64,000 nucleotides of DNA from Candidatus Pacebacteria bacterium UBA6180 (GTDB lineage: Bacteria; Patescibacteriota; Microgenomatia; UBA1400; PJMF01): NCBI GenBank assembly GCA_002422165.1, contig DITQ01000001.1:71919-135918 (forward strand). The letters are read 5' to 3'. The position numbers and the translations under genes were made by a program. Shown one piece after another: positions 16,840 through 62,000 of the stretch. How positions within the stretch are numbered: the first letter of the stretch is position 1; each line of letters starts with the position of its first letter. Under the pieces are notes generated by a model. That model had not been told where the DNA came from. It worked only from the letters and a program-made list of their open reading frames with translations, and made no database searches.

Positions 16840-17051
16840 AAAATTTCCCTTGACTCGGCTACAAAATTACCGCTTGCAATTGACTTTGATTCTTGTTAGT
16901 TTGGTCTTTGCTGTGGAACGCAGTGAAAATCTGCGACTGTGCCGCAACGGTGATTTCCTTTTTGGATCAAGTCCGATCTTCAGCAAAATTGCTAATCTTG
17001 ACGAGCATCGAGTAAGAATTTTTCTGTAGAGAAAAAATTTTGCCAGACGAT

Positions 17052-17143: not shown

Positions 17144-17887
17144 ATGTCAAGTAAAGAAACAGGAGGATCAGGAGCAAGACAAAAGAAACGCACGGCTGTG
17201 GAGATGGCTGCTAGTGTGGGGTCGTCCGTAGTTTTGCCAGATCAATTCTGGCAAGATTTCAGTCGTCTGGATCTGTCCACCGTCTTGCGTGATTTGGGCA
17301 AGGAGCTGGGCTTTAGTTGGCTTGAGTGGGCAGCGATCATCAATGGAGCGGGGATGTGGTTGGTGGAGAGTTTGGACAAAGCAGCTGCTAACTTGCAGGC
17401 GCAAGTCGTCGAGCAACAAACAGCCATCGAGCTGCGGCAAACCTTTGGTGTACCCCACAGTGATTTGGCACTGCCAGTTTTCATGGAGTTGGCAGTGATG
17501 GAAGCTGATGCTAGGCAGGCCCTGCAGCAAGGGGCAGCTTCGGTCGAAGCGATGTGGGCGCGGCTTAGAGAGCAAGTTTTTTATACCATACAGTTGTTTT
17601 TGGCTAATCGGATCAATCAAGTCGAGGAGGAAGAGCGGGCGAATAAGCAAGCTTTGATGGTGGCCAAGGAGCACGCCAAAGGTCACGAGCAGGTGTTGGC
17701 GCCGGAACGGACCGCGGTCGACGCTAGATTTAAGCAAACCCTGCGAGACTTGTCAACCAAGAAGGACGAGTTGATGCAGGCTTTTCGGCAATTAACTGGC
17801 GGTGCAGTCAGAGGAGTCGAGCGAGCGTTGGAGGCGACGGTTTTTCAGGCAAGTCGACAGTCGCTAGCGGTGACGCAGGTGGGGTGA
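17144..17887 (+). CDS. Hypothetical protein in a GC-elevated segment
   Basis: The + strand ORF is protein-like (helical, Q/A/E-rich) and has an AAAGG RBS. An antisense 189-aa ORF is a GC-driven shadow. Local GC is visibly higher than the flanks. Confidence 0.5.
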   Translation: MSSKETGGSGARQKKRTAVEMAASVGSSVVLPDQFWQDFSRLDLSTVLRDLGKELGFSWLEWAAIINGAGMWLVESLDKAAANLQAQVVEQQTAIELRQTFGVPHSDLALPVFMELAVMEADARQALQQGAASVEAMWARLREQVFYTIQLFLANRINQVEEEERANKQALMVAKEHAKGHEQVLAPERTAVDARFKQTLRDLSTKKDELMQAFRQLTGGAVRGVERALEATVFQASRQSLAVTQVG

Positions 17888-19350: not shown

Positions 19351-19439
19351 TGCATCTTTCGTACCAAGCGTCCGAAATTCGCTTTGCATCTTTCGTACCA
19401 AGTGTCCGAAATTCGCTCTGCATCTTTCGTACCAGCTGC
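19351..19439. repeat. Tandem direct repeat, 34-bp unit, about 2.6 copies
   Basis: TGCATCTTTCGTACCAAGCGTCCGAAATTCGCTT, then TGCATCTTTCGTACCAAGTGTCCGAAATTCGCTC, then TGCATCTTTCGTACCAGCTGC. Each unit contains an internal TTTCG...CGAAA inverted repeat. Confidence 0.85.
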
Positions 19440-19905: not shown

Positions 19906-20835
19906 CTAGAGAAGCTCGCCAAAAAGACGATCTGCCTCTGATATTTCTGACTGGTCCTCTGGGTGTGGAACCAAGTTATCATCACTAGGTTTTGTACCAA
20001 CAATGACAAACTCATAACCTAGCCACCTATTAGCGAGTCTTCTTTTATCATCAGGTAGAACCTTCATCAAACTTTCCACATTTTTACCGAGTGCTCTCAA
20101 AATTGGTAAATAAAAAGGGTGCTTAACTTTACCAGTTTTTAGATCAAATAAGTAAAATGAATCTAAAAAATACCCCGGTCTCCAACCGGCAAATTGTAAA
20201 TTTGTTAAGCCTATTTTTTTGTACTCTTTTGCCAAAGATCCAGTCATATCTGGGTAGAAAGGTTTTTCTGGATAATATCTAAAATTTCTACCTTGCAAAG
20301 CTAAAGCTATAGTTTGAGGAAGGTTTAGTAAATTTGGGACAGCTGTTGCGAGCTTACCGCCTGGCTTCAAGATTCTATTTGCTTCACTCAAAATCTCTCT
20401 CCAATTATAAAAATGTTCGATAACCCCCTCGCTCATGACGAGATCAAACGACTCTTCCCTAAATGGTTGATTAAACATATCTCCCTGGATAAAAGGCATC
20501 TTTTTTTCATTCAATTTATTTAATTTCAAAACTTCAAAAGAAATATCTAACCCCACACATAACTTAGCAATCATCCCAATTTCTTTTAAAACTCTTGCTT
20601 TGCCGCTGCCAAACTCCAAAACGCTGTCACCTTTTTTTACCATAAGTAGTGACTTTAATATTTCCATTTGCTCTCTCTCAAATTTAAGCCTTGCCTCAGT
20701 GGGAGCCACATCATGGTCTTCTTTAGCACCAAGTGCTTTGTAAAGCTCTTGTTTCCACCGTTCATTAAATGGATTTATTCTTTCTTTCATAAAATTATTT
20801 TGTTGCATCACAAACATGCAATTAAAAAGTTGCAT
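19906..20835 (-). CDS. Class I SAM-dependent methyltransferase (small-molecule type)
   Basis: Motif I VLEFGSGKARVL, an acidic residue after beta-2 (GLDIS), and motif post-I MSEGVIEHF. No DNA-MTase (D/N)PPY motif. AT-rich. Confidence 0.65.
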   Translation of the reverse strand: MQLFNCMFVMQQNNFMKERINPFNERWKQELYKALGAKEDHDVAPTEARLKFEREQMEILKSLLMVKKGDSVLEFGSGKARVLKEIGMIAKLCVGLDISFEVLKLNKLNEKKMPFIQGDMFNQPFREESFDLVMSEGVIEHFYNWREILSEANRILKPGGKLATAVPNLLNLPQTIALALQGRNFRYYPEKPFYPDMTGSLAKEYKKIGLTNLQFAGWRPGYFLDSFYLFDLKTGKVKHPFYLPILRALGKNVESLMKVLPDDKRRLANRWLGYEFVIVGTKPSDDNLVPHPEDQSEISEADRLFGELL

Positions 20836-20864: not shown

Positions 20865-20940
20865 GCTTCGACTCTCACAGCTAGTGCTTTAGCTAGCTCG
20901 CTTGACGGCGAAAAGCATGGGACGAAGTTGTAACTTTTTG
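20865..20940 (+). repeat. Intergenic repeat element, copy 1 (about 76 nt)
   Basis: GCTTCGACTCTCACAGCTAGTGCTTTAGCTAGCTCGCTTGACGGCGAAAAGCATGGGACGAAGTTGTAACTTTTTG. About 90% identical to copy 2 at 46564..46640. Confidence 0.8.
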
Positions 20941-20970
20941 CCACAATAAATAAAATTTATGGGATAAATT

Positions 20971-21321
20971 TTATCCAATTAATTGTATAAGTTCAGCAAC
21001 ATTTCTGTTAATTAAATCTGAATTATATCCAGTAGTTGAAGGATTTTGGCTTGCAATTTCGCTCAATAATTTAACTATTTGCTCTTTTTGACCACCAAAG
21101 TCTTCATTGCCAATAAGTGAATCATTTTCTTCAGCACCTATTATTTCTCCAATTTTCAACCTCATGCCTTTCAACCCATAGCCATCGTGTATTATAGAAC
21201 CTCCAGGTGCGTTTACAGAAATTATATTTTCGTTGGCTCTTTTTATATAGTCAATAACATCTAATAGTTGTTGTTTTAGAGCTTCTTTTCGAGATTCTTC
21301 ACCTGAACGATTTTCAATCAT
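20971..21321 (-). CDS. Hypothetical protein (116 aa)
   Basis: ORF only. AT-rich. No recognisable motif. Confidence 0.4.
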   Translation of the reverse strand: MIENRSGEESRKEALKQQLLDVIDYIKRANENIISVNAPGGSIIHDGYGLKGMRLKIGEIIGAEENDSLIGNEDFGGQKEQIVKLLSEIASQNPSTTGYNSDLINRNVAELIQLIG

Positions 21322-21467
21322 AGTTTTCCTTGATTATATTATTTTAATTAAATACTACCATATAAAATTAGATAAAAACAATTATTAGAGGCACTGTACT
21401 TTTCGAGTATACTCCTAAAGAGTACTTGCCACGCAAACTTCGTTTGCTTGGCGGGCGTTAGCCAGGC

Positions 21468-21540
21468 GCTTCGACCCTCGTAATTTGTGCTTTGGCTGGA
21501 TCGCTTGGCGGCAGGATTCTCACCTGGGTTCTCATGCTCC
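21468..21540 (+). repeat. Intergenic repeat element, diverged copy 3
   Basis: GCTTCGACCCTCGTAATTTGTGCTTTGGCTGGATCGCTTGGCGGCAGG... shares about 75% of the first 46 nt with copies 1 and 2, in the same orientation. Confidence 0.5.
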
Positions 21541-21592
21541 TTGCAAAGCCGCAACGCTAGCCAACTCTAGCTGCGCTAGGCTGTCTACCGTT

Positions 21593-21677
21593 GCGGAGGC
21601 ACTGGGATTCGAACCCAGGAACCGGAAAACCGGTCAGGTTTAGCAAACCTGTGCAATTGGCCACTATGCGATGCCTC
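21593..21677 (-). tRNA. tRNA-Ser (anticodon GCT)
   Basis: The minus-strand sequence is GGAGGCATCGCATAGTGGCCAATTGCACAGGTTTGCTAAACCTGACCGGTTTTCCGGTTCCTGGGTTCGAATCCCAGTGCCTCCG. It has a 7-bp acceptor stem, anticodon loop TTGCTAA, a long variable arm, and T-loop TTCGAAT. CCA is not encoded. Confidence 0.9.
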
Positions 21678-21756
21678 CTTGTTAAAAATACTCTTGGATT
21701 ATACCAGAAAACCAGATCTAGCAACTAGCTAAGGTTCAAGCCAGGCTAGATAGCTG

Positions 21757-45027: not shown

Positions 45028-45273
45028 ATGAAAATTCAAGTACTGGGTTCCGGTTGTCCCACCTGTCAGAAATTACACCAAGTAGTGCTTCAGGCCGCCA
45101 AAGAACTCCAGCTCGACAAACAGGTGGAGTACTTATCTGGCAGCGAGGGTATTAGTAAAATTATGGAGTTAGGGGCGATGAGTAGCCCCGTGTTAGCGAT
45201 TGACGACCAGGTCGTGATGACTGGTTTCAGCGGCGACGTGAATAAAATTAAAACTCTGCTGAGCAAAATATGA
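45028..45273 (+). CDS. Thioredoxin-fold redox-active disulfide protein 2
   Basis: MKIQVLGSGCPTCQKL, a CxxC small thioredoxin-like protein. Confidence 0.75.
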   Translation: MKIQVLGSGCPTCQKLHQVVLQAAKELQLDKQVEYLSGSEGISKIMELGAMSSPVLAIDDQVVMTGFSGDVNKIKTLLSKI

Positions 45274-46160
45274 ATATTTTTACGCCAATTCAACAGTTCG
45301 CCGACCTAGTGACCTACCAGTGGCTAGACATTGCCCTACACACTTATTTGGGTGACAGCGTTAATTTTTTCATTTACGACGTGATCAAAATTGGCTTGCT
45401 GATGTTGATCATCAACACTGTGGTCACAATAACCGAATATTATTTCCCGATGGAAAAAGTGCGCGATATTCTCACCAAAAGGCGATTGTATGGTCTGGAT
45501 TATTTAGTTGCTGCTTTGCTTGGCGTGATTACCCCCTTTTGTTCTTGTTCGTCGATACCGCTTTTCATCGGTTTCATCTCTGCCAAAATTCCATTGGGAG
45601 TGACTTTTGCTTTTTTGATTAGTTCGCCACTGGTCAATGAGGCTTCGCTTTATCTTTTTCCGAGTATTTTTGGTCTGCAAGTGACTTTGCTCTACAACGG
45701 TGTGGGAATTTTGATTGCTATGTTGGGCGGCCTGTTGATTCAAAAAATGAAAATGGACAAATACATTCGTCCAGAATTTTTGAGGTTTAAATCGAGAAAG
45801 CAAATGCAAGCGGAATATGCAGGTGCCAAAGTGCCTTTAAAGGATTTGGTGCAATTATGGCGTTCTCAGGTGTGGGCAATCACTCAAAAAATTTTCCCCT
45901 ATGTTTTGCTTGGCGTAGGCGTAGGCGCTTTGATTCATGGTTTCGTGCCAGAATCTTTGGTGGCCAACTATTTGACGAGCAAAGCTTGGTGGGCGGTGCC
46001 GACGGCGGTGCTTCTCGGTACCCCTCTCTACACTAACTCCATCGGCGTGGTGCCAGTGGTCGAGGCGATTATCAATAAGGGTGTGCCAAATGGGTACGGC
46101 GCTGGCTTTCATGACGGCTGCGACTACTCTGTCCATTCCTTCTGGTTTAATGTTGGCTAA
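45270..46160 (+). CDS. Permease (DUF318/ArsP-like), C-terminus probably frameshifted
   Basis: Multi-TM with a CSCSSIP motif. The +1 frame continues as a conserved-looking C-terminus to 46250 (see findings). Confidence 0.65.
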   Translation: MNIFTPIQQFADLVTYQWLDIALHTYLGDSVNFFIYDVIKIGLLMLIINTVVTITEYYFPMEKVRDILTKRRLYGLDYLVAALLGVITPFCSCSSIPLFIGFISAKIPLGVTFAFLISSPLVNEASLYLFPSIFGLQVTLLYNGVGILIAMLGGLLIQKMKMDKYIRPEFLRFKSRKQMQAEYAGAKVPLKDLVQLWRSQVWAITQKIFPYVLLGVGVGALIHGFVPESLVANYLTSKAWWAVPTAVLLGTPLYTNSIGVVPVVEAIINKGVPNGYGAGFHDGCDYSVHSFWFNVG

Positions 46161-46308
46161 GTTGATGAAAAAAGAATTACTGCTCGCCTTCTTTGGCATT
46201 ACCGTGGCAGGGATAATTCTAATGGGGTATTTGTTTAATGCGGTTTTGTAGGAAGAAATATGACGAGCGTTTGTGGCAGTTTTGCCGTGCAGTACGCTGG
46301 ACACTTCG

Positions 46309-46497
46309 CTAAAATTTGACGAAACGATTGACTAGCCAAACCAAGATTGCGAAAAAACTAAAGGCTAGGAGTGCGGCTTGTAGGCTTAGTTTGATTGGCA
46401 TCTTTTTAGAAGTGTAGTGATGTTCATATTCACCATAAGTAATGAGAAAAGCAGCCAATCCAGCAATTGAGGCAAAGATAATTCCAATGATGAACAT
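46309..46497 (-). CDS. Hypothetical small membrane protein (62 aa, 2 TM)
   Basis: ORF only. Confidence 0.3.
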   Translation of the reverse strand: MFIIGIIFASIAGLAAFLITYGEYEHHYTSKKMPIKLSLQAALLAFSFFAILVWLVNRFVKF

Positions 46498-46563
46498 GAG
46501 GCTATTTTAGCTCCTTTTTTAGGTTGGTGCGAAGGCGCCTCGCCCTTCGGGCATTACCCAGGA

Positions 46564-46640
46564 GCTTCGATTCTCACAGCTAGTGCTTGAGTTAACTCGC
46601 TTGACGGCGGGGAGCATGGGATGAAGTTGGAACTTTTTTC
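46564..46640 (+). repeat. Intergenic repeat element, copy 2 (about 76 nt)
   Basis: GCTTCGATTCTCACAGCTAGTGCTTGAGTTAACTCGCTTGACGGCGGGGAGCATGGGATGAAGTTGGAACTTTTTT. Confidence 0.8.
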
Positions 46641-46671
46641 GCTCGATAAATTAAGGCTTATAAATTAGTAA

Positions 46672-46992
46672 TTAGCTTATTTCGATATTGTTAACTTCCT
46701 CAGGATAGAAATCAGTGCGCCCATCTTCATGTTTGAGAATTAATACTCCACATGGCCTTCCATATTCTATACGAGTTACTCTTAGATAATTATCATCATT
46801 AATTTTCACAGTTATTTCTTTCCCTTGAGAAGGAGCATATTGCAGGTAATGACTGCTTTTAAAATTTTCTGGCCACTCACCACCTATGAGAAGACCTTTT
46901 TTCATAGCAGTTAAAATTTCTCTTCTAATGCGATTCACTCCTAATTTAGCTGCTTCTAAGTTTTCCTCAGAAAAGTATTCATTTTCATTCAT
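46672..46992 (-). CDS. Hypothetical protein (106 aa)
   Basis: ORF only. The first gene inside the AT-rich segment. Confidence 0.4.
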   Translation of the reverse strand: MNENEYFSEENLEAAKLGVNRIRREILTAMKKGLLIGGEWPENFKSSHYLQYAPSQGKEITVKINDDNYLRVTRIEYGRPCGVLILKHEDGRTDFYPEEVNNIEIS

Positions 46993-47226: not shown

Positions 47227-48777
47227 TCAAATCCAACCTTGAGCACTACTGTACATGATAAGAGAGAACATTCTTGCTATTATCTCTCCCGAGAGATTAA
47301 AAATATTGTGATTTTGAAACTCAAAATTATGGCCTGTAAAGTTTCTAACACATGTAGTAATTCTAGCGTTAGCGAAATTCACATCTGTGGTATTAGATAC
47401 AGCGCTGTTAATTTTTGTTTCTAATTCAGTTAAACTGCTTGCAGCCGTATATTCACCTCTAGTTGAATTAATTGGTGTACTAAAAAGTGTTTGCAGCATA
47501 TCGCCAAGAGTCCCACTTAGACTTGAATTCTTTCTTTTCAGCTCATCTTCATACCACAGCGCAAGTTCAGATAGAGATCTTAAAATTTCACCTCTGTTCA
47601 CAGGATTACTCAGCTCAGAATTCAAGCTATAGGAAAAAGAAAACCGATAGAGAGTTATGAATAAAAGAATTTTCTTTTCAGGCGAAAGTGATAAAACATA
47701 TGATTTAAAATCACCTTCTGATAAAGTCGTTGAAAAAACTTGAATATTCTTACTAAGAATGTCTTGGAAGAAGTTCGATATCTGTATATTTTCAAATTGG
47801 GTATATAGATCACTGGTTGGCAAATCTTTCTCTGGATCTATGGTGACTCCAGATAAATGGGCTAAACAACTCCTATCATTATCGTAAGCCTTATAAAGAT
47901 TAAATAACCCTTCTATCACTTTCCCCTGGGCTAGTTGGGAAACACCTAAATTTGCCAGTGAAATGCCTCTGTTTACATTTTTATTATCAGTTTTATTAAA
48001 GTTAACAATCTCACTATCAATATTTGCCCAATAACTTTCTGACACACCATATAATCCACGATTTAGTAGCCAAGTTCCCATCATCTGAGTGTAGCCATCA
48101 ATCGGCTTATTCTTGTCCTCATAAGTATTAATTTCGAAGTCCGATACCTTCATTTGACTTAAACGTTCTCTAAGGCCGATTCTTCCGAGCTCAACCAGGT
48201 AGGCGATATCTCGATGAACTCTGTCAACAATATCACCGCCATTTCCAGGAGTTGTTGCTAATAAGTCATACTTTGAGTCAAATTCAGTAGTGTCAGTTGG
48301 GAGTTCAGACAACTTCTTCACAGCCACTTCAGAATCTGAAATCAACTTTTTTATTTCATCTAAACTACTTTGAAATTTGCCTTCTAATGCAGATGCATTA
48401 AATAGTAGCGGAACAGTAAAAATTAAATCGAAACTTCCCAAAATGCCACTTGGCATTACTTTGAATAGATAATCATTCTGCACTGATAAAGAAGTTGGTT
48501 TCGTGTTGAATAAAAAGTAGTAGGCTAAGACAACATTTGGAATAGGATCTCTATCAGGAATTAAATTTCTGCATCTTTTTGCTAAAAATAGGAATTCACT
48601 TCTTAAAAAATCTGCTTTCCTTAATCCCTCTTTGATCCAGTTCGTATATTGCTCAGAGTTGTTATCTGTAAACCCTTGCTGTGGGATACCAAATCTGTGT
48701 CTATATTCTCGCACTAACAAAATAAACATTGGGTGATTTACAAGGCTCTCAAAAGAGAGATTTATTTTGTCGTACAT
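47227..48777 (-). CDS. Hypothetical protein (516 aa), 4th gene of an AT-rich four-gene operon
   Basis: Overlaps the upstream gene by 16 nt. No recognisable motif. Very AT-rich. Confidence 0.5.
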   Translation of the reverse strand: MYDKINLSFESLVNHPMFILLVREYRHRFGIPQQGFTDNNSEQYTNWIKEGLRKADFLRSEFLFLAKRCRNLIPDRDPIPNVVLAYYFLFNTKPTSLSVQNDYLFKVMPSGILGSFDLIFTVPLLFNASALEGKFQSSLDEIKKLISDSEVAVKKLSELPTDTTEFDSKYDLLATTPGNGGDIVDRVHRDIAYLVELGRIGLRERLSQMKVSDFEINTYEDKNKPIDGYTQMMGTWLLNRGLYGVSESYWANIDSEIVNFNKTDNKNVNRGISLANLGVSQLAQGKVIEGLFNLYKAYDNDRSCLAHLSGVTIDPEKDLPTSDLYTQFENIQISNFFQDILSKNIQVFSTTLSEGDFKSYVLSLSPEKKILLFITLYRFSFSYSLNSELSNPVNRGEILRSLSELALWYEDELKRKNSSLSGTLGDMLQTLFSTPINSTRGEYTAASSLTELETKINSAVSNTTDVNFANARITTCVRNFTGHNFEFQNHNIFNLSGEIIARMFSLIMYSSAQGWI

Positions 48778-49961
48778 ATTCTTATCCTTATCATTTTTCT
48801 CCCCATCACATCTGGGTTCTTAGGTAAAATAGTGGCCTCTACTATATTTTCAATAGAAATCTTGTATTCTTTGGCAAAATGTTTCTTTAAGTTTTGAATA
48901 AGTTTGGTTTTATTTGTTTCTATAGTGTGATAATACAGTTGATTTCTAAATGTAGATCCAAATTGGTCAATCTCATAAACCTCAATTAATGATCCTTCGG
49001 TTCTGTTTTCCTCTGGGTCAAAGACCTCAATGGTGTACACACTTTTCTTATACTTATAATATTTCAGCAGGATACTTGGAGATACATTGTCAAAAGAAGC
49101 TCCTGTGTACCAAGTATTGCCTGGTAAAGGGAATTGGTTGGGATAAGTCTCCGATCGGTCAAAATTAGCTGGATGAGCTACATCACCAAAAGTCGATCTT
49201 TCATCCCAAAATCTTTTTATAACATTTTTTTCATCATCATCTATTTCAATTTTGGAAGCAACCTCTTCAAGTCTATCTTTGAACTTAGGTTTATTCGATA
49301 GAGAGTTCACAATAATTTCTATCGATTTGAAGTGGTCAAGAGCTCTTTTCTCATCACTATCAAAAATTAAGTATCCCATTGATGCTCTGTAAAGATATTT
49401 CAAAGCTCTTTCAAATATTGCATCACGAAATTCTAGTGAATCATTCAAAAAAGTTTCTGTTAGTTCACTCATCCATTGATTTCTTTCGGGACGATCAGGT
49501 AAATATATATGACCACTCTCCAGTTTGAAATCGACTTCTGATTCATTTCCTTCCTCATCTAAAGAATAAATCTTATTAACTTGATAAATGTATGGTTGAA
49601 AACTACCTCTGTTTTCACCGTGTTTCAGTTTCAGATCTTTAAGATTTGCCAGAGATAAAAACCGTGCCACTCTATCGATTGCACGAATTGCTCCACCTAC
49701 GGCTGATCTAGTATTTTCTTCTTCAATGTCATAGTAAATGACATACTCAGATTTAATTTTTATGGGGTCAAAATATGGTAAAGATGTAACATAAGTCTTG
49801 TGAAAGTTGTTTACATCAGAATCGGAAAACACACTTTTGATTGGGGCGAAGTTCCTTTTTTCTTGCTCTTCAAAAGTCATTTTCCTTATAAAGCACTTTT
49901 CAATCTCTCTTTCTGAGAGAGTCTGACCATGGATTAGTGCATAAATTCTATATTTACTCAT
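48762..49961 (-). CDS. Hypothetical protein (399 aa), 3rd gene of the operon
   Basis: Overlaps neighbours on both sides. Contains RFWDERSTFGDVAH, which is HEPN-like (R-x7-H) but not canonical. Confidence 0.5.
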   Translation of the reverse strand: MSKYRIYALIHGQTLSEREIEKCFIRKMTFEEQEKRNFAPIKSVFSDSDVNNFHKTYVTSLPYFDPIKIKSEYVIYYDIEEENTRSAVGGAIRAIDRVARFLSLANLKDLKLKHGENRGSFQPYIYQVNKIYSLDEEGNESEVDFKLESGHIYLPDRPERNQWMSELTETFLNDSLEFRDAIFERALKYLYRASMGYLIFDSDEKRALDHFKSIEIIVNSLSNKPKFKDRLEEVASKIEIDDDEKNVIKRFWDERSTFGDVAHPANFDRSETYPNQFPLPGNTWYTGASFDNVSPSILLKYYKYKKSVYTIEVFDPEENRTEGSLIEVYEIDQFGSTFRNQLYYHTIETNKTKLIQNLKKHFAKEYKISIENIVEATILPKNPDVMGRKMIRIRICTTK

Positions 49962-51747
49962 GATTTTTAAAATAGGCTGTAAATTTTTCTACTAGTAATT
50001 TGTATAAAAAATCAAATAAAGGAGTATCTGAATATATCAAGTCACATTCTCCTTCAGTCCAGGTACTAACTTTATATTTATTTCCTCGCAACTCAACCTG
50101 ATTAAAATTAGAGTTTTTCAAAAGCAACTTTTCATCTTCTGTAAGCTCCACAACTCTCGTTGTTTTTGTATGATTTATTCCCTCCAAATAGAAAGTGTGT
50201 AGTTTAGGAATATCAAATCCTTTATATACATCTTTGGTTTCGATTGAAAATGCTATGACTTCTGGAAGACTTAATTCTTTTGCTAAAGATGGAAAATTAT
50301 TAAGTACAACTTGGTTGTAAGCTTCAACAAGTGATGATTGAAAGACATGGAAGTTGTTAGCAACATCCTCTTTTGAGAGGGTATTCCAGATTAAGTTAGA
50401 TTCTAACTTTGAAAGTCTCTCAAAACTTTTTCTAATATATGGTCTTTTAATCTCACCTGTTTGATTTTTAAGGTAAGTTAGTAGCTCAACGAAAATACCA
50501 AAAGGAAATTTTTCATTACCAACTAGTATCCTTGGTAGAGATTTGTCTTTCTTTGAGAGTGTAGTTATTGTTAGCCTATTTACCTTAGCTAGTTCTTCAG
50601 TATTTAATGAAGATAATACATCTGGATCAAGGTAACTCCTATTAGGAATATCGTTCTTCTTTATTAAGACCTTATATGCGTTTATTGTCCACCATGGTAG
50701 GAAATTATAAAAAGCAAACTCCACCTCTTCTAACGAATATTTATCTTTTTTATCTAAACCAAGCTGAATCTTGAACTTATCGACAAAGGCAAAAATGAAT
50801 TCTTTTGCTAGATCTTTGTTCCCAGCATGATTTAGCAACTTTTTATATAGAACATTTAATACTTTCTCACGAATAATATCTCTAGAATACTTTTTATGAT
50901 CTTTGAGTATTGGGTTTTGCGTACTAAAGCCTCTAAACTCCAAACCCTCATTTCTTAATTGCTCATGCAATGCTTTTGTTGCTTCTTTAATCTGGACGTC
51001 GTTTTTTGTGAGTGAAATTGGATATAGTGCATAAGATAAGTTATTTTGAGAAAACTCATAGTAAGTCAACCCAATTTTCCAAGCATCAGGATAATATATC
51101 CTTTTTACCAACTTAAACTCATTTTCCAATAGGCTATTTAGCTCATCTAAGAACAAATGAATAAATTCATACCTTTCGTCAATTGCTCCCAATGCCGGTG
51201 TAATTGTTTCAGAAATAAGTGCATATGCATTCTTATATTTTTCAAACTCTTCAGCTTTATACCTATACAAATCAATTATTTTCGACCATTCATCAATAAA
51301 TTCTTTGCTACCATTTTTTATAACTTTTAATTTATCAAAATGAATTGTTTTACTAGTTCCTAGATTATCTACAAAACTTTTATCAATCTGAATCCAATAA
51401 GCCTCTTTTGGATCATCAAGTCTGACCCCAATGAGAATTTTCGGTATCCAATTATTGGAGTCTTTACAATAAGACAAAAATTTATCATCGTTAAAGCTAT
51501 ATTTGGGGGGATTAATATTTTTTGAAGGCAACTTTTTGATCTGAACTTCAAGCTTCCCAATTGGAAAGCCTTCTTTGTCAGTTACCTCAATATAACCATC
51601 AATATTAGGCCAAGTATCATTTGATTTAATATCTGGCATTGCTCTTTGAGTTTCTGACAGCCAGGCACTAACATAACTTACAGCTTGTTGGTCAAAAAAA
51701 CTTGTTTTGAAATGTTTTGCTGATTTTGACTTTTTTCCTTTAGACAT
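49954..51747 (-). CDS. Hypothetical protein (597 aa) with an N-terminal DUF4365-like PD-(D/E)xK motif, 2nd gene of the operon
   Basis: WPNIDGYIEVTDKEGFPIGKLEVQIKK gives a D-G-x-I-E...V-Q-I-K pattern typical of DUF4365/REase-like folds. Family assignment is from memory. Confidence 0.5.
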   Translation of the reverse strand: MSKGKKSKSAKHFKTSFFDQQAVSYVSAWLSETQRAMPDIKSNDTWPNIDGYIEVTDKEGFPIGKLEVQIKKLPSKNINPPKYSFNDDKFLSYCKDSNNWIPKILIGVRLDDPKEAYWIQIDKSFVDNLGTSKTIHFDKLKVIKNGSKEFIDEWSKIIDLYRYKAEEFEKYKNAYALISETITPALGAIDERYEFIHLFLDELNSLLENEFKLVKRIYYPDAWKIGLTYYEFSQNNLSYALYPISLTKNDVQIKEATKALHEQLRNEGLEFRGFSTQNPILKDHKKYSRDIIREKVLNVLYKKLLNHAGNKDLAKEFIFAFVDKFKIQLGLDKKDKYSLEEVEFAFYNFLPWWTINAYKVLIKKNDIPNRSYLDPDVLSSLNTEELAKVNRLTITTLSKKDKSLPRILVGNEKFPFGIFVELLTYLKNQTGEIKRPYIRKSFERLSKLESNLIWNTLSKEDVANNFHVFQSSLVEAYNQVVLNNFPSLAKELSLPEVIAFSIETKDVYKGFDIPKLHTFYLEGINHTKTTRVVELTEDEKLLLKNSNFNQVELRGNKYKVSTWTEGECDLIYSDTPLFDFLYKLLVEKFTAYFKNHE

Positions 51748-51776
51748 ATTTGTTCATATTAATTATAGCTTTGATT

Positions 51777-53387
51777 TTATTGTATATTTCCTGAAAACCC
51801 CTCATTCTCACTCACCAAAAAAATCGTCCAGTAAACATACCCGCTGGCATCTTTTAAATCTCTTCCAGTCAGAACACCTTCCCGTCTCAATTTTTTGATC
51901 GATGATGGTTTTACGCCTCGTTTTTCAACGTCATATTTATCAAAATGTTCTTTCTCCCACCACTCCTTATCCAGATCAAGCACAGGGACCACACCTTCCT
52001 GGATATTTCTCCAGCAATCACGGCATCTCAAGCCATCTGGCCGCCACCAAATGTCCTCACCGTTGTGGGATCTTCTGCAAATTCCACAAGTGTAACCTCT
52101 ACCACCATCATTGAGAAAGAAACCATTTGGTTCATCTTTTAGCCTGCGAGTCCTAATACGTTTGGTTGCAATGTATTCAGCGTCCATTCTGGCTAGCTGT
52201 ACGAGGTTGTGGTGTTCATATTTAGCTCTGAAATCTGGATCAAGCTTGGATTTAGGCTTCTTTGGTTCTTCTTTACCAAACAGCTTAAGCAAGTCGTCTT
52301 CTGATTCATATCCTTTGAGCTTGCCACTGAGAAATCCCAACCGATAACTCATCAGGTCTTTCGGTGCTCGCCAGTTGGTGTCCTTGAGTGTTGTTTTCAG
52401 TAAGTCGTATAAATCAGAGATGCTTTCTCGGTCACGTCGCTTAGGCTTAGTTTCTTGAAGAGTAAATGGCACTAATACGTGACGATCCATATTAGGCTCA
52501 CCAATAGATAGGCGGGTAAAACCACTTTCTTCAAGTGCTTTATTGATCAAAGTTTCTAGGTCTGTGATGGCGATTTTATTTACCGATAACAGCTTTTCAT
52601 GAGCTGGCGTATCGAGTTCAGCGAGAACTTCCTCTTTTACTTCATGAGCAACCTCCAGAGCTTCAAGCGTTTCTACATATTCTTTGCCTTTTTCATCAGA
52701 TAAACAAAACTCTGCTCGATACTTCACCAATAGTTGTTTGTCTTCTAGCTCTTCTTTTGCATGTTCTTCCTGCCACTTTTTATGCTCCTCATCGCTTTTC
52801 TTCAGATCCCAAATCTCTTTATTTGAGTAGCCACAGTTTTTGCACTTGTAGCGGGTGGTAATGACCTCATCTTTCTTACTACTTTTTCTCTCTAGCTTTT
52901 GTTTGCAGTCAGGACAAAAGTCAGACTTAGAAACATAGATCTCGCCATCGTCATACGCACCTTGTCGCTTTTTACATTTTGGACAGTTGAAGGTGAATAG
53001 CACCCTCATGGGTTTACCATCATCCCAATCAACTAAGTGGTGAGAACCATCGTCAGTCATAGCACTCCCACATTCAGGGCAATTGGCTCTGGGAGCTGGA
53101 GTATTGTCTTGCTTGTCCTGTTTAAGGCGATCAGACTCAAGCCACTCAGCGATAGTTGAAGCTCTGTGTTTGTGTCTTTGAGCTTGGATGAGAAAGAGCA
53201 TCCTGCCTCTGAGCAATCCCATGTTTCGTTCTTGTTCAGATTCTGGGTAATTTTGGAACTTTGGTTCCTGTTTCATTTTCTCGCCAATAGAATTGACCAT
53301 CTCCAAAGTCTTCAGACACTCTCTGATAGTGCCAACATCGTAGCGATCTTCATACTCTTGTTGTGGTTTTAGGTATTGAAACGACAT
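51777..53387 (-). CDS. Multi-zinc-ribbon protein (536 aa), 1st gene of the operon
   Basis: Three CxxC...CxxC pairs: CPECGS...CPKCKK, CPDCKQ...CKNCGY, CGICRR...CRDCWR. No NTPase motif. Somewhat higher GC than the downstream genes. Confidence 0.5.
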   Translation of the reverse strand: MSFQYLKPQQEYEDRYDVGTIRECLKTLEMVNSIGEKMKQEPKFQNYPESEQERNMGLLRGRMLFLIQAQRHKHRASTIAEWLESDRLKQDKQDNTPAPRANCPECGSAMTDDGSHHLVDWDDGKPMRVLFTFNCPKCKKRQGAYDDGEIYVSKSDFCPDCKQKLERKSSKKDEVITTRYKCKNCGYSNKEIWDLKKSDEEHKKWQEEHAKEELEDKQLLVKYRAEFCLSDEKGKEYVETLEALEVAHEVKEEVLAELDTPAHEKLLSVNKIAITDLETLINKALEESGFTRLSIGEPNMDRHVLVPFTLQETKPKRRDRESISDLYDLLKTTLKDTNWRAPKDLMSYRLGFLSGKLKGYESEDDLLKLFGKEEPKKPKSKLDPDFRAKYEHHNLVQLARMDAEYIATKRIRTRRLKDEPNGFFLNDGGRGYTCGICRRSHNGEDIWWRPDGLRCRDCWRNIQEGVVPVLDLDKEWWEKEHFDKYDVEKRGVKPSSIKKLRREGVLTGRDLKDASGYVYWTIFLVSENEGFSGNIQ

Positions 53388-57493: not shown

Positions 57494-58129
57494 TTAAAAC
57501 TGTCCATCTAGAATATTTTCAACGCAGAGCTCATGCAGGTATGCCTCATCATTCTTCTCGATGAGCTGATAATAGATTCTTGCTTTGTGTGCTTCGTAAC
57601 CATTAATAACTATTTCAGAGACAGAATTACCTTTTATTGAATCAAGATATCTTTGATTATCTGATTTAGGGTTCAGAACGAGTAGATTGCTATTCAAATT
57701 AAATGACAAACCTTCACTAACTTGATGATCTATTGATGGTTCGTATATAACAATGCCACCTGAGATTGCATCAACAATAGCAAATCCCTGACATTCGGTA
57801 CCACATCCCCAAGTTGCTACAGTGTAATGTCCTGCAAAGTTTGGACCATCAGCTGATTGGTGCATTATGGTAGTGCTAAATAACTTCGCTTCAGGAAATG
57901 AATCAAAATTAACTGAGGCTGGTTTTTCTGAGAAAATCTCAACAGCTGAACTGTCTACTTTTGAGAGTACTTCGTCGCAAACAGAAATAGAACTTAATTT
58001 TGAAGATACAATCTGACTTTCGATTCCAACAAATTTTGAATATTTTGCTCCAAAATAAAATGATATTATTGTGGCTAAAATTAATAATAAGCAACTTCTA
58101 ATAATTTTCATAATAAGTAATAGAAACAT
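57494..58129 (-). CDS. Hypothetical secreted/membrane-anchored protein (211 aa)
   Basis: N-terminal hydrophobic signal or anchor. Its ATG immediately follows the stop of the WYL gene. Confidence 0.45.
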   Translation of the reverse strand: MFLLLIMKIIRSCLLLILATIISFYFGAKYSKFVGIESQIVSSKLSSISVCDEVLSKVDSSAVEIFSEKPASVNFDSFPEAKLFSTTIMHQSADGPNFAGHYTVATWGCGTECQGFAIVDAISGGIVIYEPSIDHQVSEGLSFNLNSNLLVLNPKSDNQRYLDSIKGNSVSEIVINGYEAHKARIYYQLIEKNDEAYLHELCVENILDGQF

Positions 58130-58789
58130 TTAGTAATATTTTCTAAAATTCTTAGCATTTTCTATTTGTGAATCTGACTTATTTATGTAATCATAATTAA
58201 CAGAAAAATTTTCACCCAACTTAATGTTCTTCATTCTATCTAACCTAAACGTTCTCAAGTCATTTCTATAGGTACAATAGGCAACACAATAAGTGCTGTT
58301 TACGTTATATGGATGAATTGTTCTGCTAAAGCCCTTGTAGTTGATTGTGGCTTCCCTGTGCTCTTTGACAGCTATTGCAATGATTTCCTGATTTGTTTGA
58401 CCACTGACTTTAGTGGAATTCTTTTCCTTTATTTTTTCGTCTCTAAGTCTCCAAAGAAAAGTACTATCAATTTCGCACTGATCCTTTAAAGATCCATATA
58501 AAAGACTGTTTACAATAGATCTCTCTAAGCCAAGTTTAGATGCTATATCTTTGGCTTTAATACCATCACTTTCCTCAATTATTTTCAAAACCCTTGTCTT
58601 CAATGAAACTTTTGTCTTGTTAGCCAGACCACTTTGGCTTAATGGGTGCCACCCATAATTTTCATCCTTGTAACAACGTCCTTTGAGTTTTTCAATTAAG
58701 ATGTTGTAAGTAATTAAGTAATTTTGAAAAGCCTTTTTCGCAATTTCTTGACCAGTTAGTCCAGGATAGTTGCTTACTATTTCAAGCAC
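58130..58789 (-). CDS. wHTH-WYL domain regulator module; GTG start with an open upstream frame through a Zn ribbon (possible C-terminal module of the helicase)
   Basis: Two HTH-like segments and a WYL-domain signature ...IHPYNVNSTYCVAYCTYRNDLRTFRLDRMKNIKL. There is no ATG start, and the frame is stop-free for 116 codons upstream. Confidence 0.55.
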   Translation of the reverse strand: MLEIVSNYPGLTGQEIAKKAFQNYLITYNILIEKLKGRCYKDENYGWHPLSQSGLANKTKVSLKTRVLKIIEESDGIKAKDIASKLGLERSIVNSLLYGSLKDQCEIDSTFLWRLRDEKIKEKNSTKVSGQTNQEIIAIAVKEHREATINYKGFSRTIHPYNVNSTYCVAYCTYRNDLRTFRLDRMKNIKLGENFSVNYDYINKSDSQIENAKNFRKYY

Positions 58790-59088
58790 AACCTCCTCTG
58801 GAGTTTTTGAATACTCAGTGCCTTTGTTGTTTTTTACACCTGATTTTCCATCTGAATTAGCTATTGGTTCTTGTCTCTTAAAATACTTATTTCTGTATTT
58901 ATTTAATTCGTCAAAGCTGAGACTAGATCTAAATTTATGAAGCCTCGTGTGTCTGTCTTCTTCATAACAAAATAAGCAAAAGTCTATATTCTTGAATGGG
59001 AAAGCATAACTTGCATAAATATTTTCACATTTTTCACAAGTTCTATCTTCTTTATTAATCAGTTTTTCTATCTGTCTATGGAAATCTT

Positions 59089-62000
59089 CTAAAACATCAG
59101 GGTTTTTGACTTTTTTTTTACGATGTTGGTTAATCGTTCATCAAGAGTTTGGATAGGATCTTTGCCAATATTAAACTTATTAATCCTTAAGAATTTATAA
59201 CCATAACCTTCAAGAACCTTCTGCCTATAAATGTCGTTTTCATTCATGTAATACTCATAATTATATTGATCAACGTCGGATATATTTTCGCTAAAGTGTT
59301 CTTTGAAACCATCGTATTCAATAATAATCTTCTCGTCTTTATACATTAATAAAAAGTCAACTTTATATTTAGGATGAATATAGTTGCCATCAAGTTGCTG
59401 GAGATAATCACCTAATGGAAACTGAGGTTTGAGCTCAATGAATTCTTTGTTTTGTTTGTAAAAATTTGTTTGTTCAAAATAATGTTTTATTTTATCTTCC
59501 ATCGGGGAGTTTGGATCAGTTTGTCCAAGAGTTTTACCTCTTCCAACTTCTAATTCATTTTTATAGTGAAGAAGTGCATTCTTAATCTCTCCTTTAAATT
59601 CTTCTGGTTGTTTACTCAAAATGAAGTGCATGCAATTTTTTGCACGACTAAAACCAACATTAAGTCTTTGAGATTTAACTGTTCCGTCAACCTCATCACT
59701 CAGTTTTGCTAAATCGATGGGAAAAATCCAATTAAGCCTGTCCTTTTCTTTAGTGGCAACCATTGAATAGAAAATACAATCTCTTTCTTCTCCCTGACAT
59801 GTGTCAAATGTCATGATTTTTAGTTTACATTTGCCAAAAAGCCAATCTCTTTCTTGAAGTTCGTTAATTTTGTCAAATAAGAGAGTCACTTGCTCACGAT
59901 GTGGAGTAATTATTCCAAGAGTCTGTTCTGTGCCAGCATCATGAAACTTCTTTAATTGTTTGATAATATGATTTACTTCCATCTCGTTTGTATTTTTTAA
60001 TTCATCAAATTTACCATCATGATCAATAACATCAAACTTTATAACATCATCAATGGGAACACCCCTTACTTTCATGCATTGGAGCGAATCAGCGTAGAAA
60101 TATTTATCTGAAAATGAAATAATTTCTGGATAGCATCTAAAATGTTTTTTTAATTGGCATTCATAGTTTCTTATGAATCTCATGAACTTTAAAATTGAAT
60201 TTTTAACATCAAAGTTTTCTTGTACTTTGGTTAACCAACCATAGTTTGATTCTTCTTTACCTTTCTCCAATAGAAAAGCTTCTTGAACTTTCTTCTTCAG
60301 TTCTTGATTCGTAACTTTGCTAGCATTATTAGCTTTAACATTGGAAAACTGCTTATCATCACCTAAAACAACGATTTGTTTTCCTCTTATTAGTGCAGGT
60401 AAAGATTGAGCAATGCTTACTTGTGAAGCCTCATCAATGATAATTAAGTCAAACAAATCTTTCTCAAGTGGAATATACTCAGCATAATCTCTAATTCCAG
60501 CCAATATGCAGGGAAAAGCTTTTTTTAGATTTCTGAATAATTCTTTAGGGAATTTCTGTTTTTTTCTTAATATATTTTTGAGAGTATTGACGTCACCAGC
60601 AAAGCTACTTGTGTACTCGATGATTCGTTTATCTAAGAAGTAAGTCATTTGAGCAGTAACAAGATGTTCAATTGTTGTAACTCCCTCTGAGTAGAAACCA
60701 TTTTCTTGAATTCCGAATTGGTCTTCAAGTTTTCGCTCTATTTCCTTATATTCAAGATAAGTATTAATTTCTTCTTCTGAATGTTTCTCGATCTCACTGT
60801 TAATGTCTTTGAGATAATTAAAATCACTGTGCAATTTAATCTGATCTGACAGTTTAGGATATTTGTTTCTGAAATCTTTAACAAATTGAATATCATCAAA
60901 TAGTTCTAGTACTTTCTTGAAATCTGCAATTATTGTTTCAACTCTTTGAATAGAGGCGTCAAAATTTTGTGTAGTTAACTTTTCTACATCAATTTCAACA
61001 CCAAGAGTATTTAAGAAACTAATTTGCAAGTCGTAGTTATTCACCTCGTTTATAAGGTTCACGACCTCAATTGCTAACTCAGTTTGCCTTAGTTCTTCTA
61101 AATTCTTAATTGCATAGTCAGGATAATCTTCACAAAAACCAATCAGTTTTTTGCTTGACTTAGCCAAACTGGTTGGGAAATTTAGGTCCATATCTTGTTG
61201 TAAACAATTAAATATAAATTTGAATTCTTCGTCCCCTAATGAGTTATTAGCGATTTTTTCGTTTAAAATTTCCAGAACGTTTAGCACTTCCAAGATTCGT
61301 TGAAAGTTTTTATCTGGATTTTCAATGTTGAAATAGTGGAAGCTTTTTTTAATTGATCTTGTTAAATCATTGACTTGGTTTCCACTTAGCAAAAATCCAA
61401 TCAAAGGCTTCTTTAATTTTTGAAGGTTTATGCAATATTGTTTCAGCTCAGAAAGTGACTCTTTAACAGATTGTTCTTTTGGGACCACAAAATTTGCCAA
61501 AAAGTCTTTATCTCGTAAATTACTACTAAGAATACGATCAGATTCGTTATAGATGCCCCTAAGTAATTCATATTTGCTTACATTATCTTGTAGTTTCTGA
61601 ATATTATCTTTATGATCAAATTTTAGTGCTTCCTCATTAATTGTGATCTCTATTAAACTTTGCATCTCTTCTAGAACATCACTTATTGTTTTTGAAAAAT
61701 TAAGTAACCATTTTTTATTTTGATTTTTAAGCTCTGAGTATGAAAACTTAGAAGATAATTTTTCTTTTGAGGTCTTGATTCCGATCAATAAATCATACAA
61801 ATCTTTAAGTTTTTCTAAATTTTCTTCTGATACATTCTCTAGTGAAATTCGAATTTTATAGTTCTCCGTAATTTTTTCAATCGATGTTTTTAGGCTGGGT
61901 AAATCAGTGCTTAGATCAGAGAGATTTTCTGAGGAAATCCAATTGATTTTTTCAAAATTTTCAGCATGATGAAAGTAATATTCAATGTCCTTGATTGAGA

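What the first reader, a model, noticed from the sequence alone, without database searches (positions are those of the whole stretch)
20865..20940. Family of about 76-nt intergenic elements (3 copies, same orientation), each upstream of a minus-strand gene start
Copy 1 (20865-20940) and copy 2 (46564-46640) are about 90% identical (GCTTCGAYTCTCACAGCTAGTGCTTKAG...CTCGCTTGACGGCG...AGCATGGGAYGAAGTTGKAACTTTTT). Both contain a GCTAG...CTAGC hairpin and end in AAGTT-N-AACTT plus a T-run. A diverged third copy sits at 21468-21540 next to tRNA-Ser.

All three lie 30 to 140 nt upstream of the start of a minus-strand gene (the methyltransferase, a 116-aa ORF and a 62-aa membrane ORF). One copy marks the edge of the AT-rich island.

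They may be a small structured RNA, a REP/MITE-like repeat, a promoter or leader cassette, or recombination scars. I could not assign them to a known RNA family by eye.
Basis: seen in the sequence. Interest (0 to 1): 0.55.

Follow-up and report, generated by a model that had tools for sequence, protein, structure and literature searches.

The report
tRNA-flank repeats marking inserted gene blocks
The three roughly 76-base repeats are real, but they are most likely leftover junction sequences copied from the end and downstream flank of a serine tRNA gene, marking where foreign gene blocks were spliced into this uncultured Patescibacteria genome; this is a well-known kind of scar, not a new RNA.

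Summary
The window holds exactly three same-orientation copies: c1 20865-20954, c2 46548-46654 and c3 21452-21515. They have a modular layout: c2 = L+O+R, c1 = O+R, c3 = L+O.

They match no Rfam family. They show no significant fold on either strand and no conserved structure, and they have no shared promoter, terminator or terminal inverted repeats.

They make most sense read on the minus strand, co-directional with tRNA-Ser(GCU). In a related Pacebacteria genome (L047), the core begins exactly at the 3' end of a second serine tRNA gene, tRNA-Ser(ACU). In the window, c3 follows a decayed tRNA-like stretch. The R arm of c2 weakly resembles a serine-tRNA T-arm plus acceptor.

Both loci are tRNA-linked hot spots. 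The region after tRNA-Ser(GCU) carries different genes in each of seven relatives. At the c2 site, relatives have tRNA-Arg(GCG) and tRNA-Ser(CGA). One relative (L051) repeats its own tRNA-Ser 3' end plus trailer four times between gene blocks.

The best reading is att-type junction scars of integrative DNA at serine-tRNA genes. No integrase was found, so they are probably fossil. This is a known kind of feature and of low interest.

The parts
20865..20954 (-). Copy c1 = R' (20910-20954, weakly tRNA-3'-end-like) + O' (20865-20909, core). It lies between the 116-aa ORF and the methyltransferase ORF and lacks the L' arm.
   Evidence: On the minus strand it reads ...TCCCATGCTTTTCG|CCGTCAAGCGAGCTAGC...
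46548..46654 (-). Copy c2 = R' (46610-46654) + O' (46564-46609) + L' (46548-46563). It is the only full-length copy and sits at the border between the AT-rich defence-like island and the ArsP-like operon.
   Evidence: R' against the 3' 40 nt of tRNA-Ser(GCU) gives p~0.012, and against tRNA-Ser(ACU) p~0.018.
21452..21515 (-). Copy c3 = O' + L' (diverged, about 75% identity to c1/c2). It is embedded in the composite trailer of tRNA-Ser(GCU).
21502..21592 (-). Probable decayed tRNA-Ser(ACU)-like pseudogene between tRNA-Ser(GCU) and the core of c3.
   Evidence: Global alignment to the relatives' tRNA-Ser(ACU) scores 47 against shuffles of 34.6 +/- 4.9, with 34 of 2000 shuffles as good. ARAGORN at a relaxed threshold draws a degenerate cloverleaf at 21581-21502. 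It is not detected at default thresholds.
21593..21678 (-). Intact tRNA-Ser(GCU), the anchor of the hypervariable integration hot spot.
   Evidence: It is syntenic in seven relatives.
21377..21441 (-). Trailer 'D-block' containing hairpins. It ends in CAGTGCCTC (21396-21388), a partial repeat of the tRNA-Ser(GCU) 3' end.
   Evidence: It is homologous to the trailers of tRNA-Ser(GCU) in L047 and L049 and of tRNA-Ser(ACU) in L047. Those trailers end in a repeat of the tRNA 3' end of 14, 12 and 8 nt respectively.
20971..21321 (-). 116-aa orphan ORF (32% GC), an inserted module lying between c3 and c1.
   Evidence: No family match was found.
19906..20835 (-). Class I SAM methyltransferase ORF (36% GC), an accessory module downstream of c1.
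   Evidence: It is absent from this position in the relatives.
46672..46992 (-). 106-aa orphan ORF (34% GC), the last gene of the AT-rich island before c2.
46309..46497 (-). 62-aa predicted membrane ORF downstream of c2. It occupies the place where relatives have tRNA-Arg(GCG), a different small ORF and tRNA-Ser(CGA).

Best explanation
The three elements are direct repeats derived from the 3' end and immediate downstream flank of a serine tRNA gene. They are attachment-site-type junctions (attL/attR or internal P-core-P' junctions) left by site-specific integration of foreign DNA at tRNA-Ser genes in a Patescibacteria (Pacebacteria-like) genome.

**Anatomy, read on the minus strand**
- R' is a decayed or imperfect copy of the tRNA T-arm plus acceptor 3' strand.
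- O' (plus L') is the DNA that directly follows the tRNA. This is either the arm of the integrating element or the native trailer.

**How such repeats arise (established knowledge)**
- Integration by a recombinase that crosses over inside the tRNA 3' part duplicates that part.
- Repeated integration of related elements at the same tRNA leaves one 'tRNA-3'-end + arm' unit at each boundary between modules.

**The three copies under this model**
- c3 is the unit next to a decayed tRNA-Ser(ACU) copy just downstream of tRNA-Ser(GCU).
- c1 separates the 116-aa module from the methyltransferase module.
- c2 separates the AT-rich defence-like island from the chromosome, at a site where relatives carry tRNA genes.

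**Status of each step**
- Shown: the repeat architecture; the coincidence of the core's start with a tRNA 3' terminus in a relative; the hypervariability of both loci; and the same architecture in another relative.
- Inferred: that a site-specific recombinase produced them; which copy derives from attB and which from attP; and that the copies are now inactive fossils, since no integrase is nearby.
For: 1. **The core starts at a tRNA 3' end.** In relative L047 the sequence CCGTCAAGCGAG..., which is the start of O' on the minus strand, begins immediately after the discriminator base of an intact tRNA-Ser(ACU).
   - Local alignments of that tRNA end plus trailer to c1, c2 and the c3 region score 32-36, against a shuffle maximum of 25-28; 0 of 300 shuffles were as good.
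   - A second block of the L047 trailer matches the window just downstream of c3.
2. **c3 follows a decayed tRNA.** It is preceded by a stretch that aligns to tRNA-Ser(ACU) with p~0.017. ARAGORN draws this stretch as a degenerate cloverleaf at a relaxed threshold.
3. **The R' arm of c2 resembles serine tRNA ends.** It matches the 3' 40 nt of the serine tRNAs (p~0.012 and 0.018) but not the arginine tRNAs.
4. **The tRNA-Ser(GCU) locus is a hot spot.**
   - In relatives L047, L049, L051, L053, L055, L059 and L060, the genes after tRNA-Ser(GCU) differ in every genome.
   - In five of them the variable stretch ends at tRNA-Ser(ACU).
   - The DNA immediately after tRNA-Ser(ACU) differs in each lineage, starting right at the tRNA terminus.
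5. **The c2 locus is also tRNA-linked.** At the orthologous site, relatives have tRNA-Arg(GCG), a small ORF and tRNA-Ser(CGA). The window has none of these.
6. **Relatives show the same architecture.**
   - L051 repeats its own tRNA-Ser(GCU) T-arm/acceptor plus a ~110-nt trailer four times, each copy lying between gene modules.
   - L047, L049 and L055 repeat 14, 12 and 17 nt of the tRNA 3' end 110-135 nt downstream of the tRNA.
7. **Composition fits inserted DNA.** The flanking modules have 31-36% GC, against 41% for the window and 44-62% for the elements. They include defence-like genes.
8. **The kind is documented.** Partial tRNA genes produced by integration of genetic elements are described in PMC9897764.
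Against: - No integrase or recombinase family hit was found among window ORFs of 120 aa or more, or in the relatives' variable regions.
- The tRNA-likeness of R' is weak. Rfam's tRNA model and default ARAGORN do not see it. One test was not significant.
- No intact parent tRNA with this trailer exists in the window.
- No exact 'empty site' or excision junction was recovered.
- The core O' is better conserved between c1 and c2 (about 91%) than R' (about 78%). Simple neutral decay of one duplicated segment does not predict this.
- The window's elements are not significantly similar in sequence to the L051 units, so that parallel is one of architecture only.
- Copy number in the rest of the genome is unknown.
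Confidence: 0.6

Rival explanations
1. The units are active recombination sites of a cassette system anchored at tRNA-Ser, analogous to an integron. Each small accessory module would carry its own 'tRNA-3'-end mimic plus conserved arm' site and be moved by a recombinase encoded elsewhere.
For: - c1 and c2 each start 17-18 nt after the stop codon of an unrelated small orphan ORF.
- The core is more conserved than the tRNA-like arm, both in the window and in L051.
- A two-base change keeps the hexamer palindromic: GCTAGC in c1, GTTAAC in c2.
- No integrase lies in cis.
- L051 has four to five units between modules.
Against: - There are only three copies.
- c3 and c2 lose similarity shortly after L'. 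Copies of one attP family would be expected to stay similar further.
- No recombinase candidate was found.
- No circular junction or population variant was recovered.
- The integron core sites GTTRRRY/RYYYAAC are absent (sequence inspection).
Confidence: 0.12
2. The elements are a small non-autonomous selfish repeat (MITE/REP-like) that happens to land in intergenic DNA.
For: They are short, intergenic and multi-copy, and richer in GC than their surroundings. c1 is flanked by an 11-nt imperfect inverted repeat (I4).
Against: - c2, the full copy, has no terminal inverted repeats.
- There are no target-site duplications.
- All copies face the same way as the tRNA.
- Only three copies occur in 64 kb.
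- Pattern scans of genome, metagenome and viral collections gave only chance matches.
Confidence: 0.08
3. The elements are a structured small RNA or a 5' leader that regulates the downstream minus-strand genes.
For: - Each copy lies 30-150 nt upstream of a minus-strand ORF start.
- GAA-triloop hairpins with differing but complementary stems recur in the trailers.
- Two c1/c2 substitutions in the long-range plus-strand stem are G-C to G-U changes.
Against: - No Rfam hit was found.
- Fold energies are no better than shuffles on either strand.
- The consensus structure is negligible on the minus strand and is penalised by covariation on the plus strand.
- The downstream genes are unrelated to one another.
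Confidence: 0.07
4. The repeats come from ordinary homologous recombination, or from transformation-mediated replacement that uses conserved tRNA flanks as anchors, without any site-specific recombinase.
For: - The variable region in relatives is bracketed by two similar tRNA-Ser genes, 86-88% identical over 44-50 nt (D1).
- No integrase was found.
- The repeat units are long (60-130 nt).
Against: - Flank-anchored replacement does not by itself create extra internal copies of the tRNA 3' end plus trailer between modules.
- Sequence divergence among relatives begins exactly at the tRNA 3' terminus. That is the signature of crossover inside the tRNA.
Confidence: 0.12

Closest known systems
tRNA-gene-targeting genomic islands and integrative elements, with direct repeats of the tRNA 3' end (attL/attR) and tandem arrays at one tRNA
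   Same: - The repeats are direct and co-oriented with a tRNA.
- The core begins at a tRNA 3' terminus in a relative.
- The repeats lie at boundaries of low-GC, strain-variable gene blocks that include defence genes.
- Several units sit in series downstream of one tRNA.

Partial tRNA genes created by element integration are documented (PMC9897764). The general model is from established knowledge of tyrosine-integrase islands.
   Different: - No integrase is present.
- The repeated unit is mostly downstream flank (about 45-65 nt), with only a degenerate tRNA part.
- One copy (c2) is 25 kb from the nearest serine tRNA, at a site that has lost the tRNAs relatives carry.
- The modules are very small (one or two genes).
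Integron attC sites and gene cassettes
   Same: Each unit directly follows a small promoter-less-looking ORF of unrelated function. The units sit in series in one orientation. The architecture is consistent with a circular 'ORF + site' intermediate.
   Different: - There is no integron integrase or attI.
- There are no R''/R' core sites.
- The centre of the unit is conserved rather than the ends.
- No significant single-strand hairpin forms.
REP/MITE-type intergenic repeats
   Same: They are short intergenic repeats richer in GC than their surroundings.
   Different: They have no terminal inverted repeats or palindromic REP stem. The copy number is low, the orientation is fixed, and they are associated with tRNA genes.

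Membership tests
tRNA-associated att-site repeats (integration scars) | Direct repeats in the same orientation as the target tRNA gene | tested here: met
   All three copies lie on one strand. Their minus-strand reading is co-directional with tRNA-Ser(GCU).
tRNA-associated att-site repeats (integration scars) | The repeat contains or abuts the 3' part of a tRNA gene | tested here: inconclusive
   - The core starts exactly at the 3' end of tRNA-Ser(ACU) in relative L047; 0 of 300 shuffles scored as well.
- c2's R' against serine tRNA 3' ends gives p~0.01-0.02.
- The stretch before c3 is tRNA-like at p~0.017.
- However, Rfam's tRNA model and default ARAGORN see nothing, and one search was not significant.
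tRNA-associated att-site repeats (integration scars) | The repeats delimit DNA that varies between relatives and is compositionally atypical | tested here: met
   Gene content after tRNA-Ser(GCU) differs in every relative. Relatives have tRNAs and RarA where the window has c2 plus the island. The modules have 31-36% GC against 41% for the window.
tRNA-associated att-site repeats (integration scars) | An integrase or recombinase gene lies next to one junction | tested here: not met
   No integrase or recombinase Pfam family was found among ORFs of 120 aa or more across the window.
tRNA-associated att-site repeats (integration scars) | An empty site or excised circular junction can be observed | not testable with these tools
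   This needs read-level metagenome data. All contigs recovered for this organism were 100% identical at the elements.
Known structured RNA family (Rfam) | A match to a covariance model, or conserved covarying structure | tested here: not met
   There was no hit at E <= 10. Fold z-scores range from -1.1 to +1.1. RNAalifold gives 3 pairs (minus strand) or a positive covariation term (plus strand).
MITE / REP element | Terminal inverted repeats or a palindromic stem, target-site duplication, and many dispersed copies | tested here: not met
   c2 has no inverted repeats. The window holds three copies. Public collections gave none.
Integron attC | R''/R' core sites (RYYYAAC ... GTTRRRY), a bulged single-strand hairpin, and an IntI integrase | tested here: not met
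   The core sites are absent on inspection. There is no significant hairpin and no integrase.
Intrinsic terminator or sigma-70 promoter cassette | A GC-rich stem plus U-run, or -35/-10 hexamers, inside the shared sequence | tested here: not met
   No terminator-like sites were found at either locus. The promoter-like hits fall outside the shared part and differ between copies.

The most novel reading that the evidence does not exclude
Pacebacteria-like Patescibacteria build their accessory-gene regions as cassette arrays anchored at serine tRNA genes. Each one- or two-gene module would carry its own recombination site, made of an imperfect tRNA-3'-end mimic plus a conserved 50-110-nt arm. A recombinase encoded elsewhere would act on these sites. 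This would be an integron-like system that uses tRNA-derived sites.
Probability: 0.12. Interest if true: 0.6.

Novelty: new member of a known kind. Interest (0 to 1): 0.27.

Why it matters
If the reading is right, the elements are useful landmarks rather than a new function. They mark the boundaries of laterally acquired modules (a methyltransferase, orphan ORFs and a defence-like island) in a tiny, uncultured Patescibacteria genome. They also show that serine-tRNA genes are the main insertion hot spots in this lineage.

This helps in annotating such genomes, because it separates tRNA fragments from real tRNAs and explains some contig breaks. It also helps in tracing how symbiotic, reduced genomes still acquire defence genes. 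It would matter more only if the units proved to be active cassette sites.

Tried and rejected
- **Rfam.** Searches at the gathering threshold and at E <= 10 found nothing on the elements.
- **Single-sequence folding.** Both strands fold no better than shuffles.
- **Consensus folding.** No conserved structure emerged.
- **Promoter and terminator scans.** Nothing is shared between copies.
- **Coding remnant idea.** A minus-strand frame gives similar peptides (...ALAVR[IV]EAPG*) in c2 and c3. However, the c1/c2 substitutions fall on first codon positions and there is no start codon, so this was dropped.
- **Pattern scans of public collections.** Every hit was a chance match with no similarity in the flanks:
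  - GTDB genomes, 11 hits.
  - JGI metagenomes, 6 hits.
  - IMG/VR, 8, 16 and 0 hits.
  - Even the source organism was not recovered, so copy number outside the window could not be measured.
- **Strict attB x attP reconstruction.** I tested c3 = attL, c1 = attR and c2 = attP-like. It was rejected as stated, because c3 plus its downstream D-block is contiguous with the trailer seen after tRNA-Ser(ACU) in L047, and c2/c3 similarity stops 16 nt after the core.
- **Homology between the window's elements and the L051 units.** Not significant.
- **tRNA body against the elements.** Local alignment was not significant.
- **76-nt stretch of c2 ending in CACCA.** It does not fold as a cloverleaf, and ARAGORN finds nothing even at 70% thresholds.
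- **Extending beyond the right end of the window.** This failed because the contig ends.

Full report

Yes. The sequences at 20865-20940, 46564-46640 and 21468-21540 are clearly related and lie on the same strand.

- A degenerate 26-nt core pattern matches exactly these three places, and none in 100 shuffles.
- An HMM of the three copies finds nothing else in the 64 kb; the next best hit has E = 0.15.
- c1/c2 is the longest direct repeat in the window, 75 nt at 88% identity.

Pairwise alignment shows a modular layout:

- c1 20865-20954 aligns with c2 46564-46654.
- c2 46548-46611 aligns with c3 21452-21515.
- So c2 = L+O+R, c1 = O+R and c3 = L+O.

**2. What the elements are not**

- **Not a known or structured RNA.** No Rfam family matches, even at E <= 10. 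Neither strand folds better than shuffled sequence, with z-scores from -1.1 to +1.1. A consensus fold gives 3 invariant pairs on the minus strand. On the plus strand it gives a structure with many broken pairs and a positive covariation term.
- **Not a shared promoter or terminator.** No terminator-like site and no shared -35/-10 pair lies in the conserved part.
- **Not a MITE.** The full copy c2 has no terminal inverted repeats.
- **Not a shared gene context.** The small ORFs next to the copies are unrelated orphans.

**3. The organism and the limits of the search**

Exact-protein look-ups place the window in an uncultured bacterium assembled in ENA ERZ27315062, Logan SRR5323109 and JGI 3300001605. 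All of these are 100% identical at the elements. Homologues of the neighbouring 594-aa protein are annotated as Candidatus Pacebacteria, Patescibacteria or Woesebacteria.

Pattern scans of GTDB genomes, JGI metagenomes and IMG/VR returned only chance matches. Copy number beyond the window is therefore unknown.

**4. The key lead: the minus strand and serine tRNAs**

In relative L047 (82% protein identity) the element HMM hits one place. That place overlaps the 3' end of a second serine tRNA, tRNA-Ser(ACU).

- Read on the window's minus strand, the core begins CCGTCAAGCGAG. In L047 exactly this sequence starts immediately after the discriminator base of the tRNA.
- Alignments of that tRNA end plus trailer to c1, c2 and the c3 region beat all 300 shuffles. 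A second block of the L047 trailer matches the window just downstream of c3.
- In the window, the 81 nt between tRNA-Ser(GCU) and the core of c3 align to tRNA-Ser(ACU), with 34 of 2000 shuffles as good. ARAGORN draws them as a degenerate cloverleaf when its threshold is relaxed.
- The R' arm of c2 resembles the last 40 nt of the serine tRNAs (p~0.012 and 0.018) but not the arginine tRNAs.
- This tRNA-likeness is weak. Default detectors do not see it, and another test was not significant.

**5. Both loci are tRNA-linked hot spots**

*The tRNA-Ser(GCU) locus*

- In L047, L049, L051, L053, L055, L059 and L060 the upstream genes and tRNA-Ser(GCU) are conserved. The genes that follow differ in every genome.
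- In five of the relatives the variable stretch ends at a conserved tRNA-Ser(ACU).
- The DNA directly after tRNA-Ser(ACU) differs between lineages, starting at the tRNA terminus. This is what crossover inside the tRNA gene predicts.

*The c2 locus*

- At the site orthologous to c2, relatives L063 and L066 have RarA, tRNA-Arg(GCG), a small ORF, tRNA-Ser(CGA) and then the convergent ArsP-like gene.
- The window instead has the AT-rich island, the 106-aa ORF, c2 and the 62-aa ORF, with no tRNA.

*Composition*

- The flanking modules have 31-36% GC. The window as a whole has 41% and the elements themselves 44-62%.
- The island carries a defence-like helicase-nuclease and a WYL protein.

**6. The same architecture in relatives**

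- L051 repeats the T-arm/acceptor of its tRNA-Ser(GCU) plus a ~110-nt trailer four times (11825, 13580, 18606, 19965). Each copy lies between gene modules. The tRNA-like part is more diverged than the trailer.
- L047, L049 and L055 repeat 14, 12 and 17 nt of the tRNA 3' end 110-135 nt downstream. The window repeats CAGTGCCTC at 21396-21388.
- The L051 units are not significantly similar in sequence to the window's elements. The parallel is architectural, not sequence homology.

**7. Mechanism**

From established knowledge of tRNA-targeting integrative elements, crossover within the tRNA 3' part gives attL = tRNA + P' arm and attR = P arm + tRNA 3' fragment + old trailer. Serial integration of related elements then leaves internal 'tRNA fragment + P' arm' units between modules. 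The window's R'+O'(+L') units fit this model.

- R' would be the imperfect copy of the tRNA end supplied by attP.
- O'/L' would be the arm or trailer.
- I could not decide which copy derives from attB and which from attP. A strict attL/attR/attP assignment failed.
- No integrase was found in the window or in the relatives' variable regions. I therefore take the copies to be fossil junctions.

Partial tRNA genes produced by integration of genetic elements are documented (PMC9897764).

**8. Unexplained residue**

- The core is better conserved between c1 and c2 (about 91%) than R' (about 78%).
- Two substitutions convert the palindrome GCTAGC in c1 to GTTAAC in c2.
- c1 and c2 each start 17-18 nt after an orphan ORF's stop codon.
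- GAA-triloop hairpins with different complementary stems recur in the trailers.

These points keep open a more interesting reading, an active tRNA-anchored cassette system, at about 12%.

**9. Verdict**

The repeat family is real. It is best explained as serine-tRNA-flank-derived junction scars at integration hot spots (confidence about 0.6). This is a lineage-specific instance of a known phenomenon, and its interest is low to moderate.

Noticed in passing
L047 17949-18035; L053 16879-16964; L055 14673-14758; L059 6870-6957; L060 15713-15798: Five relatives carry a conserved serine tRNA that ARAGORN reads with anticodon ACT (A at position 34). This is unusual for bacteria and redundant with tRNA-Ser(GCU). 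It always sits at the far end of the variable region. The window has no intact copy.
   Followed up: partly
L051 11825-11972, 13580-13727, 18606-18753, 19965-20048 (and partial copy 17497-17577): A relative (GCA_964637295.1) repeats its tRNA-Ser(GCU) 3' end plus a ~110-nt trailer four to five times between gene modules. The trailer is more conserved than the tRNA-like part.
   Followed up: partly
window 46081-46251 (+) versus 45270-46160 (+): The ArsP/YraQ-like permease is frameshifted. Relatives have 326 aa, whereas the window ORF stops at 296 aa. The last 55 residues (85% identical to P0122) are encoded in another frame.
   Followed up: yes
window 16888-17023 (+): An AdoCbl (B12) riboswitch matches at the Rfam gathering threshold (53 bits).
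   Followed up: no
window 19351-19418: A 34-nt tandem duplication (94% identity) sits at the junction between the stop of the phosphoribosyltransferase gene and the start of the OmdA-like ORF.
   Followed up: no
window 20892-20897 (c1) and 46591-46596 (c2): Two of the four core substitutions between c1 and c2 convert one palindrome, GCTAGC, into another, GTTAAC. The palindrome extends to 8 nt in c1 and 10 nt in c2. L047 has ATCGAT one base out of register. This could be a dyad protein-binding site or a coincidence.
   Followed up: partly
window 21448-21434, 21411-21399, about 46553-46543; L047 12045-12100, 18100-18120; L049 12100-12150: Short hairpins with GAA (or GAAA/GCA) loops recur in the tRNA trailers. 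Their stems differ but stay complementary (GCAAAC/GTTTGC, GCCC/GGGC, GTACTC/GAGTGC, GTCCTC/GAGGGC), and some include G-T pairs that work only on the tRNA strand.
   Followed up: partly
window 47227-53387 and 57494-63771: Two AT-rich blocks (31-35% GC) carry defence-like genes. One is a 1560-aa SF1 helicase with a C-terminal nuclease-like domain (PADLOC PDC-S37/MkoA-like). Others are a WYL/HTH protein and a protein with a weak REase-like hit. The methyltransferase next to c1 resembles PADLOC mad2.
   Followed up: partly
L014 (JGI 3300001605 contig end), L058 (GCA_030154545.1 contig end), ENA k141_1688555 end at window ~47214: Several assemblies break at or near these loci. One breaks 74 nt beyond c1, one inside tRNA-Ser(GCU), and one just inside the island next to c2. 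The JGI contig spanning c2 may also lack the 211-aa gene at 57.5 kb: the look-up for that protein returned only one contig, from Logan. Together these hint at population heterogeneity.
   Followed up: no
L063 9045-9129 and 9437-9512; L066 11698-11781 and 12122-12197: Relatives carry tRNA-Ser(CGA) and tRNA-Arg(GCG) between the ArsP-like gene and RarA. Both tRNAs, and RarA/BipA, are missing from the corresponding part of the window, so they must have moved elsewhere in this genome.
   Followed up: partly
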